From NCBI RefSeq assembly GCF_033153115.1, contig NW_026889774.1:11098001-11162000 (forward strand): a DNA stretch of 64,000 bases, read 5' to 3'. The notes under the pieces were generated by a model. It was not told the DNA's origin and did not search any database. It saw nothing but the letters and a program-made list of their open reading frames with translations. The stretch comes from Saccostrea echinata. Taxonomy: Eukaryota. The position numbers and the translations under genes are program-made. Every line of letters starts with the position of its first letter. The first letter of the stretch is position 1. Positions 1,890-40,352 of the stretch are shown here, piece after piece.

Positions 1890-2035
1890 ATGCATACAGA
1901 CTCGGGAAATATGAGTCGAGCCGCTCTGAGTAAACACATGAACCTGGAGCATCTCAGCGATGAAGAATGCGAGAAGATCCTGCGTGTGTTACAGAAAGAT
2001 TTCGAGCTTCGCGACAAGGAGAGAGAACGACTGCA
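1890..2035 (+). CDS. MYRIP: MyRIP-like coding exon 1 (SHD1 helix)
   Basis: MHTDSGNMSRAALSKHMNLEHLSDEECEKILRVLQKDFELRDKERERL; in-frame TAA upstream; donor CA|GTAAG. Confidence 0.9.
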
Positions 2036-38000: not shown

Positions 38001-40352
38001 CCTGTGGGAGAAAAAAAAAATTATGATTACCAAAATTATTTCAAAAGAATTTATGTACATGGAACTTATATTTGACTTTTAACTTTCTATATAAAAGTTC
38101 CTCTGCAAAGAGCTATTTTTTGACAGAACATCCTTTGCTTATGTTTCATTGTATACCCAAGTGCAATTTAGTACACTTTGCATGCAAGCCTAACTTTTGA
38201 TACGTAATTTACAGTTTGAAAATGTTCTAAGCTCAGGGGTGAGTAGCCATTACACAACAGATAGATGTGTGCTTTAAAACTTAACAACCTTTTGTATTGA
38301 TTCTGTTAGAATTTCATGCTACATGGAAATTAGAGAAAAGATGAGATCTAAGAGATGGCCAAGCTTTTGGATTGGAATTTGGCACCATATCTTGAAATTT
38401 TAAAAATATTTGCAAATTTGTCACATGCATGAAAAATTACTTGATGTACAAAAAAGGTTCTTTTTTGTATTCTATGTATAAACACTCTTTATAATTATTT
38501 ACAAAGTTTAGGGTAAAGATTTTATGTATATTGCAAGAATGAAAATTAAATGTTAAATGACAGTATACAATTTCTCTTTTCTACATATATGTGGCAGATT
38601 TGCAGTTTGAAGTGAAATGGGCATAGATTGAATAGAAATATTGATGCTTTTCAAAATTTAATTTGAAGATGGGCAAAAGTTTGGGTAATATTACTAATGA
38701 AGCAGTTGAATAAATTATGATCTTATGGGTTTAAAAAAATGAGGAGTGCTTATTAATTAGGTTTGCTGAAGAGAAAAATACAACTGTAGCATGGAATGAC
38801 ATAAATTTAGAACCAGATGGATTCAGTAGACTATTAGTGTTCTGTATCTCTATTTCATGCTAAATATTTCAGTTGACCATGCAGGCTTTTACTTTGAAGG
38901 ACAAAAAAAAATTCTAGCTGTTTATTTGTAGTTTTCTAAAATCTGCTTATATCAGTTGGTGACTTTTATTTCTTAATGTAGGCATTAAAAACTTGTTACA
39001 CACTATATACTGTTCCTTTCACAATATCACACATACCTTTCTGTTTTGTTTGTTTGTTTGAAATTGTTTCATTCCTCTTGATTATTTTTTTTTTCCAAAC
39101 AAAAGGGTGGGGAGGTCACAATTTATAAGGTTGCAAATACTTTTAAAAATCAACTATAGTAGTGGCACATAAGATTATGGATTTGGTTCTTGGGTGTTTT
39201 TAACGCGTTAGAAATCAATCTGGTTCTAATTCCAGTAGATTTTGTTGAGAGTTTAACATAATTTAATTGAACTCATGCAAATCTGAAGAAACATCTCAAG
39301 AAACAGGTTGGTATAAACAAGTATTGAACAATTTCAGGTTTCATAACACAAATGTAATTATGTATATTTTATTTTATACATGTATACTTCTCTTAAGAAA
39401 TACAGCTTGAAATATATTTAATAATTGTATATTCATTTATTATATATATTTAATTTATTTTCCTTTATTTTCATATGTTAATTTTCCTACATTTGATTAT
39501 AATTAGAGTTCATATGTTTTCATTTTCTTTCATTTAAATTTTATTTTATTATGCTTTACAGTATCCTTACAATTTACATTAAGTTTGCAAAAATGATCTT
39601 TTCACCAAAAAATCACTCATTTATAATGAATTCATATACGTACATGTATTTTAAAATTGAACTTGCTAAAAAAAAAAAAAAAAAACTTATTTCATGACTT
39701 TTTAAACTTGTAACCAGTTAAAGCAAATACATGTAGTTCATGCATGTGTAATATTGGTTAAAGCATTTGTAATGAATCAGAAATAATATTCCTGGATGAT
39801 TTTTAGGTACACAGTATCACTGGTCGCAGTGTTCCTAAAGAGAAGCTAGATAAATACCGAAACCTTTCATCCCCCTTAACTAAACCTGTACAATCACCAA
39901 AGCAACCCACCCCAGGAAAGAGCACTCTTACTGTGACCTTGACCTCCAAACATCCAGGGACGAAACAGCTGAATGCTGAACCTACTCAAATCTTTCCTGA
40001 AAAGAAAGGAGAATTTTTTCCCGATTCTTCCCAGCAGAAAACTCAAAATGTCACATCTACAAAGGCAGTACCTAGTACTAAAACCAAAGCTGCCCCACCA
40101 GCCCCTACTTCACAAATTAAACAGGCAGCAGTAACTCCTGCTTCAAGGACACAGACTGACTCTGGGTCAAGATCAAAAGCACCTTCCCAGAATGAACCTG
40201 GAGCTTCTTCAGCAGATGCTCAACCTAAAGGGAAAACGAGGATAAAGTCAGGATGTATAACTGCTAGAGCTTCTTTCTGGGAAAAACGAATTCATGGAGA
40301 AGAAACTAAAGAGGAAGATTATCCTGAAATGGTCGAGCATGTTGATGAATGA
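1890..40352 (+). CDS. MYRIP: Rab27 effector MyRIP/melanophilin (Slac2)-like protein with two I-set Ig domains, multi-exon gene (~1,680 aa)
   Basis: Hand-spliced exons, all GT-AG with matching phases: 1890(or 1911)-2035, 2755-2976, 6247-6374, 8866-9012, 22999-23178, 23561-23704, 24165-24248, 25627-25730, 27607-27711, 28935-29799, 29919-30072, 31582-31952, 32399-32593, 32811-32981, 33118-33258, 33409-33554, 34263-34433, 34753-35331, 35624-35782, 36329-36625, 39807-40352 (5034 nt from ATG 1911, no internal stop). SHD motifs NLEHLSDEECEKILRVLQKDFELR, C4-C4 zinc finger and EWFYNNVSSKFKRFGSAKVVRSLY match MyRIP/melanophilin; C-terminal LEEQIHNLE..LQDLEDEVA matches their coiled coil. The symbol indicates family, not proven orthology. 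Confidence 0.85.
2755..2976 (+). CDS. MYRIP: MyRIP-like exon 2 (FYVE_2-type zinc finger)
   Basis: CVRC..CLTCKHYVCKRC..CHAC; TTTCAG| and AG|GTGA boundaries. Confidence 0.92.
4745..5465 (+). repeat. Decayed Helitron/HINE-type element with ~150-bp units
   Basis: CTGT/CCAT microsatellite followed by recurring GTCAAAGGTCAAGGTCA at ~4888, 5039, 5183, 5450. Confidence 0.5.
6247..6374 (+). CDS. MYRIP: MyRIP-like exon 3 (SHD2)
   Basis: ELKLKSFEWFYNNVSSKFKRFGSAKVVRSLYKQR; TTGCAG| and |GTGAGT. Confidence 0.92.
8866..9012 (+). CDS. MYRIP: MyRIP-like exon 4
   Basis: Phase 1-1, DNESDTGYDPSFLASLR..; TTTCAG| and G|GTCAGT. Confidence 0.8.
11582..11642 (+). CDS. Candidate alternative first coding exon (MIRGKREGQGYASWFIGLDN)
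   Basis: ACCATG start with in-frame upstream TGA; G|GTAAGA phase-1 donor compatible with downstream phase-1 exons. Confidence 0.5.
17420..17737 (+). mobile_element. Decayed second copy of the tRNA-LTR TRIM family
   Basis: Two tRNA-like segments (GGTTGGTAGAACACC.. and AGCTCAGTGGGTAGAGCATCTG..GGTTTGAATTC), each ending ATTACA, around an internal AGCCTGGGATGGTGTCTT and GGGAGGGAGA shared with 43951-44051; left boundary approximate. Confidence 0.7.
18197..18413. mobile_element. hAT-like poly-C/G MITE
   Basis: CAGTGGCGGATTTA..TGGATCTGCACCTG termini, internal C-runs; flanks ATTAT/ATAAT. Confidence 0.65.
22999..23178 (+). CDS. MYRIP: MyRIP-like symmetric (likely cassette) exon with poly-N/poly-S
   Basis: TTTTTCAG|, G|GTACTG, 180 nt, phase 1-1, open frame. 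Confidence 0.6.
23561..23704 (+). CDS. MYRIP: MyRIP-like exon
   Basis: IYKEAFEHYKETEEKKFNYKFDSLLQELYQSLE; phase 1-1. Confidence 0.82.
24165..24248 (+). CDS. MYRIP: MyRIP-like exon
   Basis: GEVLEKYRSRLRELLVGVSQRLEMAVE; phase 1-1. Confidence 0.8.
25627..25730 (+). CDS. MYRIP: MyRIP-like exon
   Basis: FDSTPSQSAVDTAQKVKKLVSKLVEESFGESIDV; |GTGAGT. Confidence 0.82.
27607..27711 (+). CDS. MYRIP: MyRIP-like exon
   Basis: TSDEAVSDLSSLSDDSCDHQVKSFEDQLAHAVVAR; |GTAAGT. Confidence 0.82.
28935..29799 (+). CDS. MYRIP: MyRIP-like large acidic exon
   Basis: Covers ORF 29013-29858; TTTTAG| and G|GTCAGT. Confidence 0.88.
29919..30072 (+). CDS. MYRIP: MyRIP-like exon (WRDNWIF motif)
   Basis: KSWRDNWIFNK..VYLTIPQPDDDITARVGN; phase 1-2. 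Confidence 0.85.
30969..30995 (+). CDS. Candidate 27-nt microexon with GC donor
   Basis: TTTTTTAG|, AG|GCAAGT, phase 2-2, adds SADQEKGES. Confidence 0.45.
31582..31952 (+). CDS. MYRIP: MyRIP-like exon, start of Ig domain 1
   Basis: PKFDIPPESVTVKEGEPAKFSCRVSGTEPI. Confidence 0.88.
32399..32593 (+). CDS. MYRIP: MyRIP-like exon, end of Ig domain 1
   Basis: VIWYR..GQLMCMAINEKAHCSQSFILKV. Confidence 0.88.
32811..32981 (+). CDS. MYRIP: MyRIP-like exon, start of Ig domain 2
   Basis: PEFLKEIEDQEVKEGQHVKFRAKVKGYPLPRVVWYKDG (I-set signature). Confidence 0.9.
33118..33258 (+). CDS. MYRIP: MyRIP-like exon, end of Ig domain 2
   Basis: YLLNIEYATPEEDAEYWVVAKNVAGETKSTAQLIV. Confidence 0.9.
33409..33554 (+). 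CDS. MYRIP: MyRIP-like exon
   Basis: Phase 1-0, open frame SSPKTKVISSTPIK..ESANK. Confidence 0.82.
34263..34433 (+). CDS. MYRIP: MyRIP-like exon
   Basis: CTAACAG| acceptor; LAEMHSSLDQFDAMLSSFE..; ATG|GTAAGA. Confidence 0.82.
34753..35331 (+). CDS. MYRIP: MyRIP-like exon
   Basis: Covers ORF 34747-35445; GAG|GTGGGT. Confidence 0.85.
35624..35782 (+). CDS. MYRIP: MyRIP-like exon (Rab_eff_C-type coiled coil)
   Basis: IYITYSHICNLEEQIHNLEYR..LQDLEDEVALVVAHTNLTEQR. Confidence 0.85.
36329..36625 (+). CDS. MYRIP: MyRIP-like exon
   Basis: VISVEQQL..ELPSVNRLKSLF..VKR; phase 0-0. Confidence 0.85.
37469..37650. mobile_element. Tc1/mariner-like MITE remnant
   Basis: TACAGTGTAGCCTCATTAGTCCG..CGGGATTAACTAGGCGCGACT imperfect inverted ends. 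Confidence 0.4.
38215..38238 (+). CDS. Candidate 24-nt microexon (FENVLSSG)
   Basis: CCTAAC branch point, TTTACAG|, GGG|GTGAGT, phase 0-0. Confidence 0.55.
39807..40352 (+). CDS. MYRIP: MyRIP-like terminal coding exon
   Basis: VHSITGRSVPKEKL..IKSGCITARASFWEKRI..VDE*; candidate ATTAAA poly(A) signal near 40944. Confidence 0.85.
   Translation, partial: VHSITGRSVPKEKLDKYRNLSSPLTKPVQSPKQPTPGKSTLTVTLTSKHPGTKQLNAEPTQIFPEKKGEFFPDSSQQKTQNVTSTKAVPSTKTKAAPPAPTSQIKQAAVTPASRTQTDSGSRSKAPSQNEPGASSADAQPKGKTRIKSGCITARASFWEKRIHGEETKEEDYPEMVEHVDE

What the first reader, a model, noticed from the sequence alone, without database searches (positions are those of the whole stretch)
1890..40352. Rab27-effector/Ig hybrid: MyRIP-like protein with two titin-type I-set domains inserted
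Seen: one continuous spliced frame joins a Slp-homology Rab-binding zinc finger, a long acidic linker, two I-set Ig domains (31860-33250; the second lacks both canonical Cys, typical of intracellular Ig) and the MyRIP/melanophilin C-terminal coiled coil. Known: vertebrate MyRIP and melanophilin link Rab27 vesicles to myosin Va/VIIa and actin and have no Ig domains. Inference: an invertebrate Slac2 architecture that may tether Rab27 granules (pigment or secretory) to actomyosin through Ig modules, possibly the ancestral form.
Basis: partly seen in the sequence, partly recalled or inferred. Interest (0 to 1): 0.7.

Follow-up and report, generated by a model that had tools for sequence, protein, structure and literature searches.

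The report
Oyster vesicle tether with Ig domains
This oyster gene encodes an invertebrate relative of the vertebrate vesicle-anchoring protein MyRIP, with two extra immunoglobulin-like domains that also occur in other molluscs, marine worms and horseshoe crabs, and it likely ties secretory vesicles to actin filaments.

Summary
Confirmed as one gene. A 21-exon model (all introns GT-AG, 1,684 aa) equals RefSeq Saccostrea echinata LOC133191984 X2, and spliced contigs cross the 14-kb intron. It belongs to the MyRIP/melanophilin family: Rab-binding zinc finger, no C2 domains, and the helix that vertebrate MyRIP needs for myosin Va. The Ig pair is not an oyster oddity. It occurs in molluscs, an annelid, a brachiopod, nemerteans, chelicerates and a barnacle, and is absent from all sampled deuterostome records and from Hydra. 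A gain in the protostome stem is therefore likelier than 'ancestral form'. Actin anchoring likely uses two Lifeact-type tail motifs; one docks in actin's hydrophobic cleft in a model (0.82, best control 0.01). The Ig role is untested. An internal first exon gives an isoform without the Rab-binding domain, and the myosin helix lies on a skippable exon. No paper describing this architecture was found. Fly M7BP may be the insect member (untested). New variant of a known kind.

The parts
1890..2035 (+). Exon 1: start codon and first helix of the Slp-homology (Rab-binding) domain
   Evidence: (FYVE_2 E 3e-05)
2755..2976 (+). Exon 2: FYVE-type zinc finger of the Rab-binding domain
   Evidence: FYVE_2, 61.2 bits
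6247..6374 (+). Exon 3: second helix of the Rab-binding domain with the MyRIP/melanophilin-type end motif
8866..9012 (+). Exon 4: acidic motif conserved in protostome members, then linker
9013..22998 (+). Intron 4, 13,986 nt, spliced out in contigs of runs X1 and X3
   Evidence: table 5
11582..11642 (+). Alternative first coding exon (RefSeq isoform X5): gives a protein without the Rab-binding domain; similar N-termini in Ostrea, Mytilus, Lymnaea and Octopus records
   Evidence: its joint to 22999 was not listed
22999..23178 (+). Exon 5, shared by long and short isoforms
23561..27711 (+). Exons 6-9 (23561-23704, 24165-24248, 25627-25730, 27607-27711): protostome-conserved four-helix region, aa 275-430, no Pfam family
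28935..29799 (+). Exon 10: long acidic linker
29919..30072 (+). Exon 11: W-x-x-N-W block shared with arthropod members
31865..32589 (+). I-set Ig domain 1 (aa 855-947; exons 12-13: 31582-31952, 32399-32593); both Cys present; acidic
32834..33242 (+). I-set Ig domain 2 (aa 957-1047; exons 14-15: 32811-32981, 33118-33258); no canonical Cys; best conserved block measured
33409..35331 (+). Exons 16-18 (33409-33554, 34263-34433, 34753-35331): helical block homologous to echinoderm, hemichordate and vertebrate MyRIP, then linker; exon 17 is skipped in isoform X4
35624..35782 (+). Exon 19: most of the MyRIP/melanophilin coiled coil (MMAH); phase 0-0; skipped in isoform X3
36329..36625 (+). Exon 20; holds SFM-like motif 1 at 36563-36589 (aa 1483-1491)
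38215..38238 (+). 24-nt cassette exon of isoform X1
39807..40352 (+). Last coding exon; holds SFM-like motif 2 at 40257-40283 (aa 1654-1662), docked in actin's cleft in the model

Best explanation
One spliced oyster gene encodes a 1,684-residue member of the MyRIP/melanophilin family with two I-set Ig domains in its middle, which likely binds Rab27 on secretory vesicles through its N-terminal zinc-finger domain, likely recruits an unconventional myosin through a conserved C-terminal helix, and is predicted to grip actin through short tail motifs. Shown: gene structure, domains, family homology, taxonomic spread. Inferred: Rab27-GTP binds the N-terminal domain, as in melanophilin; the exon-19 helix (MMAH) binds myosin V or VIIa; two Lifeact-type motifs in the tail stand in for the basic actin-binding cluster of vertebrate MyRIP, so vesicles are held in cortical actin. 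The Ig pair was most likely gained once in the protostome stem and lost again in some lineages (spiders). Its strong conservation suggests a docking surface for a cytoskeletal partner rather than a plain spacer (about 0.5; partner unknown; F-actin, as for myotilin/palladin Ig domains, is my first guess). An internal first exon and skipping of exon 19 would give forms that lack Rab binding or myosin binding.
For: One gene; full-length orthologues with FYVE_2 plus I-set in all 32 named lophotrochozoan rows among the 120 listed (of 629 hits) for an Ig-free profile. Family: best PDB match of the Pacific-oyster domain is melanophilin (E 3e-34) against rabphilin (4e-07); Rab_eff_C above its cut-off in 4 of 9 lophotrochozoan proteins and in Lineus; a coiled-coil profile built from lophotrochozoans alone hits 6 of 6 fish MyRIP, urchin and amphioxus at E 1e-13 to 5e-19; MyRIP A751, needed for myosin Va (PMC4760305, passages), aligns with oyster T1401. 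Spread: own Ig profiles score over 20 bits in 34 of 36 named lophotrochozoan, 6 of 7 arthropod, 0 of 94 deuterostome and 0 of 1 cnidarian records; eight of ten blocks tested match between lophotrochozoans and arthropods in the same order, E 9e-07 to 9e-17. Actin: motif 1 fits V-x-x-L-x-x-x-F of the published SFM; motif 2 is a variant whose Arg at P4 and Trp at P8 each occur among listed human SFMs (PMC13364712); my pattern finds at least one in the tail of 17 of 20 named protostome proteins and in 0 of 4 vertebrate MyRIP, shuffles giving 0.03-0.15 per protein (pattern written from these motifs, so not an independent test). Complex model of oyster actin with the tail: score 0.82, best of 3 controls 0.01; the mark was reached by 51 of 78 solved and 2 of 108 mismatched microbial pairs, and by 39 of 65 solved and 2 of 126 unrelated eukaryotic pairs; runs share at least 21% of contacts; partner pLDDT at least 43; residues 1647-1665 touch actin Y143, G146, I341, I345, L349, M355 and G23-A26. 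Ig2 column conservation 0.78 against 0.71 for the Rab domain and 0.44 for linker.
Against: No binding to Rab27, myosin or actin has been measured. Pfam Rab_eff_C misses the oyster protein, and the vertebrate middle region has no significant match to the protostome helical region (E 0.12). The complex pass may come from likeness to solved Lifeact/ITPKA-type complexes; peptides and disordered chains were not in its calibration, the partner's fold is uncertain, and actin was a monomer in two pieces. The polarity rests on one short Hydra protein (278 aa, no coiled coil) whose orthology is unsure, and on a 146-column tree with 32 of 76 inner branches open. Arthropod Ig2 scores no higher than a palladin Ig (50.5 against 52.8 bits), so its common origin rests on position and on Ig1 (73.1 against 40.4). 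Short Ig-less lophotrochozoan records exist (two from Helobdella, a rotifer, a second Owenia gene). In vertebrates the physiological myosin partner of MyRIP is itself debated (PMC10511049, passages).
Confidence: 0.68

Rival explanations
1. The Ig pair is the actomyosin contact: it binds or bundles F-actin like the Ig domains of myotilin and palladin, and the tail motifs are secondary.
For: Myotilin binds F-actin through its Ig domains and flanks (PMC8062120, abstract). Ig2 is the best conserved block measured, cannot form the canonical disulfide in 40 of 40 orthologues and has a conserved Lys/Arg run in lophotrochozoans. Titin, telokin and MyBP-C are among the top PDB sequence matches of exon 14.
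Against: Not tested. Ig2 is near neutral overall and Ig1 acidic; the basic run is not kept in arthropods; spiders lose the Ig pair but keep the tail motifs.
Confidence: 0.25
2. The Ig-bearing form is the ancestral bilaterian MyRIP and deuterostomes lost the Ig pair.
For: With two bilaterian branches one loss costs as much as one gain; losses do occur (spider records). The tree does not resolve the root of the family.
Against: The Hydra record named MyRIP has no Ig; echinoderms, a hemichordate, amphioxus, a tunicate and vertebrates all lack it; the Slp-like outgroup rows show no Ig either.
Confidence: 0.25
3. Two genes fused by annotation: a short Rab-binding gene (exons 1-4) and a separate Ig gene starting inside the long intron.
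For: Older Pacific-oyster entries stop after the Rab domain (255 and 284 aa); an internal first exon exists at 11582; Octopus records come in two pieces.
Against: The joint across the intron is in two runs; the X1 contig's length fits exon 1 to exon 13 (by length only); both parts stand in one protein in molluscs, an annelid, a brachiopod, nemerteans and arthropods.
Confidence: 0.02
4. A titin/UNC-89-like muscle structural protein, as several database names say, with a leftover Rab domain.
For: Names such as 'titin homolog' and 'unc-89-like'; the Rab-less isoform start is conserved in molluscs and could be a muscle cross-linker.
Against: Only two Ig domains, no Fn3 or kinase domain; the Rab domain is well conserved and three blocks are shared with MyRIP.
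Confidence: 0.08

Closest known systems
Vertebrate MyRIP (Slac2-c, exophilin-8) and melanophilin (Slac2-a)
   Same: N-terminal Slp-homology domain, no C2 domains, long acidic middle, a helix block and the MMAH coiled coil in the same order.
   Different: Twice as long as mammalian MyRIP; two I-set domains; a protostome-specific helical region and W-x-x-N-W block; the basic actin-binding cluster behind the MMAH is not kept; SFM-like tail motifs instead; a Rab-less isoform.
Drosophila M7BP (CG43340)
   Same: By the paper (PMC7835385; opening sections, passages, figure legends, review file): N-terminal Rab-binding zinc motif with eight Cys, best similarity to rabphilin, melanophilin and MyRIP, C-terminal myosin-7a binding, actin tethering.
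   Different: 938 aa, no Ig reported; the authors did not class it as a MyRIP homologue. Its sequence was not obtainable here, so homology to this protein is untested.
SFM proteins (Lifeact/ITPKA-type short F-actin motif; caldesmon, neurabin, SHROOM3)
   Same: Motif pattern and predicted binding in the actin SD1-SD3 cleft (PMC13364712).
   Different: That study lists human proteins; MYRIP and MLPH are not in its motif tables. Filament binding of the oyster motifs is unmeasured.
Myotilin/palladin/myopalladin and titin intracellular I-set domains
   Same: Tandem cytoplasmic I-set domains, one without the disulfide.
   Different: No similarity outside the Ig domains; those proteins have no Rab-binding domain (palladin row).

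Membership tests
MyRIP/melanophilin (Slac2-c/a) sequence family | N-terminal Slp-homology domain with FYVE-type zinc finger, closer to melanophilin than to rabphilin or Slp | tested here: met
   Pfam FYVE_2 113.5 bits; PDB melanophilin E 3e-34 against rabphilin 4e-07 for the Pacific-oyster fragment; tree places Slp-like rows apart, SH-aLRT 99
MyRIP/melanophilin (Slac2-c/a) sequence family | No C2 domains | tested here: met
   No C2 family among Pfam matches at E<=1
MyRIP/melanophilin (Slac2-c/a) sequence family | C-terminal coiled coil / MMAH helix (Rab_eff_C positions about 547-624) | tested here: met
   Above cut-off in Owenia, Lingula, Haliotis, Babylonia, Lineus; oyster aa 1340-1413 aligns with these and with MyRIP; Pfam misses the oyster copy itself
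MyRIP/melanophilin (Slac2-c/a) sequence family | Binds Rab27-GTP, myosin Va/VIIa and actin | not testable with these tools
   Only a model with actin; Rab27 and myosin partners not modelled
Vertebrate MyRIP proper | Basic actin-binding cluster just behind the MMAH (R774, R777-779 in PMC4760305) | tested here: not met
   The aligned oyster stretch has no basic residues
Vertebrate MyRIP proper | Conserved middle region (myosin-binding, PKA-anchoring) | tested here: inconclusive
   Best profile match is one 17-residue helix, E 0.12 and 0.099
Intracellular I-set Ig domain | I-set profile over the whole domain; disulfide dispensable | tested here: met
   Two stretches, 114.9 bits; F-strand Cys of Ig2 absent in 40 of 40
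[quoted passage not shown] | V-x-x-L-x-x-x-F-E-type helix docking in the actin SD1-SD3 cleft | tested here: inconclusive
   Motif 1 fits P1, P4, P8; motif 2 is a variant and docks in the cleft in the model; helix polarity against ITPKA not measured; motif 1 not among confident contacts
[quoted passage not shown] | Micromolar F-actin binding | not testable with these tools
   Needs co-sedimentation
Drosophila M7BP group | Sequence homology to the M7BP C-terminal myosin-7a-binding region | not testable with these tools
   No M7BP sequence among the proteins fetched or in the supplement text
Titin / UNC-89 giant proteins | Long arrays of Ig/Fn3 domains, kinase | tested here: not met
   Two Ig only, no Fn3 or kinase

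The most novel reading that the evidence does not exclude
Protostomes have an unrecognised MyRIP: a Rab27 tether with its own Ig pair and two Lifeact-type actin motifs, switchable by promoter choice and splicing into Rab-less or myosin-less forms. Fly M7BP is its Ig-less descendant, which would join the vertebrate MyRIP-myosin VIIa and fly M7BP-myosin-7a systems as one bilaterian module whose actin-binding part was rebuilt in one lineage.
Probability: 0.4. Interest if true: 0.65.

Novelty: new variant of a known kind. Interest (0 to 1): 0.48.

Why it matters
A preprint on exocytic transport says that low conservation outside vertebrates makes the evolution of MYRIP/MLPH hard to resolve (10.1101/591974, passage), and the M7BP authors could not class the fly protein as a MyRIP homologue (PMC7835385 review file). 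The oyster-to-chelicerate series keeps both the vertebrate-type blocks and the protostome-type blocks, so it makes that question testable by plain profile comparison. It names specific motifs for actin binding and points to a highly conserved Ig pair with no known partner. It also corrects database names ('titin homolog', 'unc-89-like', 'uro-adherence factor A-like') across many invertebrate genomes. The core mechanism is a known one, so the interest is moderate.

Tried and rejected
Pfam on single exons: no Rab_eff_C hit. ESM Atlas for aa 1335-1530: best score 0.76 (NCKAP5-like), a lead only, not followed; for aa 15-185 it returned melanophilin first (0.92). PKA-anchoring helix: the helix at aa 408-425 is the best but non-significant match to vertebrate MyRIP; left as a lead; two primary papers were not held. 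Fold of aa 273-434: four helices, mean pLDDT 79.6; Foldseek gave no match at E<=0.001 and VIA-align best Z 10.2 (rmsd 3.6, 118 aligned, PLC-beta C-terminal domain), within the range of generic helical bundles; no function drawn. PDB sequence search with the spider member found Rab-binding domains only. No run was on record as RNA; used only for the spliced joints. The careful tree did not finish; the quick one was used. My own Ig profiles missed the fluke Ig domains that Pfam sees weakly. No insect, nematode, placozoan or full-length cnidarian member was identified among the 30 sequences looked up by name; most of the 137 new representatives stayed unnamed, and 724 of 874 hits were not listed, so this is no evidence of absence. 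Earlier findings: none. Literature searches listed no paper on an Ig-bearing invertebrate MyRIP; one search returned nothing.
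Full report
1. Observation. I rebuilt the gene from splice sites and phases: 21 coding exons on the + strand, 1890-40352, all 20 introns GT..AG, 1,684 aa, a single stop at the end. A search with exon 2 returned RefSeq Saccostrea echinata LOC133191984 isoform X2, identical at all 1,684 residues. Pfam finds FYVE_2 at aa 21-137 and two I-set domains, and no C2, Fn3, kinase or Rab_eff_C at E<=1. The X1 contig (2,718 nt) has 449 nt upstream of exon 4 and 1,502 nt downstream of the last laid base; on the model these lengths end at 1937 (exon 1) and 32513 (inside Ig1).

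2. Family. The Pacific-oyster Rab-binding domain matches melanophilin (2zet, E 3e-34) far better than rabphilin (E 4e-07). In a quick tree of 79 such domains the oyster lies with MyRIP and melanophilin rows, apart from a Slp-like group (SH-aLRT 99); 32 of 76 inner branches are open. A genome search found three FYVE_2 loci, of which this is the strongest; I read the other two as Slp-like and rabphilin-like from their translations (my reading, untested). The C-terminal coiled coil passes Pfam's Rab_eff_C cut-off in Owenia, Lingula, Haliotis and Babylonia (4 of 9 lophotrochozoan proteins scanned) and in Lineus. A profile built from 29 lophotrochozoan proteins hits fish MyRIP, urchin and amphioxus at E 1e-13 to 5e-19. 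A second helix block behind the Ig pair matches echinoderms and Saccoglossus (49-76 bits) and vertebrate MyRIP (profile-profile E 8.5e-06). The coiled coil holds the MMAH, the region reported essential for myosin Va binding by MyRIP, with A751 as the test residue (PMC4760305, passages); A751 aligns with oyster T1401, while the basic actin-binding cluster behind it is missing.

3. Spread of the Ig pair. With an Ig-free profile, 629 proteins were found and 120 listed: all 32 named lophotrochozoan rows and 2 unnamed rows carry I-set; none of 10 invertebrate deuterostome and 76 vertebrate-type rows does. The 50%-identity library gave 874 hits, 150 listed; naming 30 sequences showed Ig-bearing members in horseshoe crab, tick, scorpion and barnacle, weak Ig in two flukes, and none in a spider, a tunicate or Hydra. 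Over 138 hand-picked records my Ig profiles score above 20 bits in 18 of 18 bivalve, 9 of 9 gastropod, 1 chiton, 2 octopus, 1 annelid, 1 brachiopod, 2 nemertean, 0 of 2 fluke, 5 of 6 chelicerate, 1 barnacle, 0 of 9 echinoderm, 0 of 3 hemichordate/amphioxus/tunicate, 0 of 82 vertebrate-type and 0 of 1 Hydra records (many are isoforms or close kin, and part of the mollusc set came from an Ig-containing profile). Lophotrochozoan and arthropod profiles match in eight of ten blocks tested, in the same order; two blocks did not match. Against uniformity: short Ig-less records exist in leech, rotifer and Owenia; they may be split models or paralogues. The simplest history is one gain in the protostome stem with later losses (about 0.7); loss in deuterostomes stays open (about 0.25) because the only cnidarian record is short.

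4. Actin binding. Protostome members share three short tail motifs. Two have the spacing of the SFM, V-x-x-L-x-x-x-F-E, defined from Lifeact and ITPKA and binding the actin SD1-SD3 cleft (PMC13364712, parts 1-2 of 19). Listed human SFMs include Arg at P4, Asn at P9 and Trp at P8 (supplementary table, part 2 of 5 and one row), the variants seen here. A model of oyster actin (two exon pieces) with aa 1465-1684 scored 0.82 against 0.01 for the best of 3 controls; that mark was reached by 51 of 78 solved and 2 of 108 mismatched microbial pairs, and by 39 of 65 solved and 2 of 126 unrelated eukaryotic pairs; runs share at least 21% of contacts and the partner's pLDDT is at least 43. Motif 2 sits on Y143, A144, G146, T148, I341, I345, L346, L349, T351, M355 and G23-A26. 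The model supports binding but may reflect likeness to solved complexes; it says nothing on filaments or affinity.

5. The Ig pair. Ig2 is the best conserved block I measured (0.78, against 0.71 for the Rab domain and 0.44 for linker; 29 lophotrochozoan rows). It lacks the F-strand Cys in 40 of 40 rows; Ig1 keeps it in 31 of 40. This fits a cytoplasmic docking domain. Myotilin's Ig domains bind F-actin (PMC8062120, abstract), which gives a precedent but no test.

6. Isoforms. RefSeq lists five. X5 starts at a separate exon, 11582-11642, inside the long intron and lacks the Rab-binding domain; similar N-termini occur in Ostrea, Mytilus, Lymnaea and Octopus records. X3 skips exon 19 (MMAH), X4 skips exon 17, X1 adds 24 nt; the same skips appear in Crassostrea and Ostrea records. 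These are database models; I did not see their joints in reads. A Pacific-oyster proteomics table lists a protein named UNC89 with best hit 'Rab effector MyRIP' (PMC9575672, one passage), which may be this gene; not verified.

7. Known and new. Vertebrate MyRIP anchors granules in cortical actin through Rab27, myosin and actin (PMC10511049, PMC5496739, PMC3496617; passages). Fly M7BP has a Rab-binding zinc motif, activates myosin-7a and tethers actin, but was not classed as a MyRIP homologue (PMC7835385: first 10,000 characters, passages, supplementary legends, review-file passages). That insect proteins carry the same protostome motifs is my recollection and comes from no call. Searches listed no paper on an Ig-bearing invertebrate MyRIP; the library lacks most subscription journals, and the supplements of preprint 10.1101/591974 (passages only), which I could not see, may list invertebrate sequences. 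PMC10153138, PMC2374702, PMC11231147 and PMC13249394 were seen as passages and add nothing on this point.

8. Verdict. Real, single gene; a protostome variant of the MyRIP/melanophilin family, already in databases under uninformative names. Gene and family assignment about 0.95; full mechanism 0.68; interest 0.48.

Noticed in passing
window 44898-55142 (-): Convergent neighbour with Cas1_AcylT exons (CASD1-like O-acetyltransferase); 4 of 9 frames scanned hit the family.
   Followed up: partly
window 7715-7774 (+), intron 3: Stretch similar to a cassette exon used in Crassostrea isoforms (13 of 19 residues identical); not in the five S. echinata isoforms listed.
   Followed up: partly
window 35079-35153: 39-nt tandem duplication inside exon 18, giving a 13-residue repeat absent from the other six rows of alignment A1.
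   Followed up: partly
window 21972-22465 and about 10019-10275: Intron-4 stretches covered by many unrelated contigs with loose ends: dispersed repeats.
   Followed up: no
window 41287-42363, 57094-59888, 63303-63912: Tandem arrays with 41-nt, 23-nt and 301-nt units.
   Followed up: no
P0056 aa 1015-1025; P0068 aa 1649-1659: Amphioxus and Saccoglossus members keep one SFM-like motif in the tail, so one such motif may predate the protostome-deuterostome split.
   Followed up: partly
human MyRIP position 630 (PMC13364712 source data): A first-pass SFM candidate with reversed helix polarity, not in the final tables; it lies in the helix block homologous to the oyster post-Ig block.
   Followed up: no
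G000, contigs C1, C2, C3, C22, C25: At least 20 loci with a long actin exon: a large actin gene family.
   Followed up: no
P0310 (Clonorchis), P0254 (Schistosoma): Fluke members carry degenerate, insertion-rich Ig domains (Pfam I-set E 3.5e-09 and 6.5e-05).
   Followed up: partly
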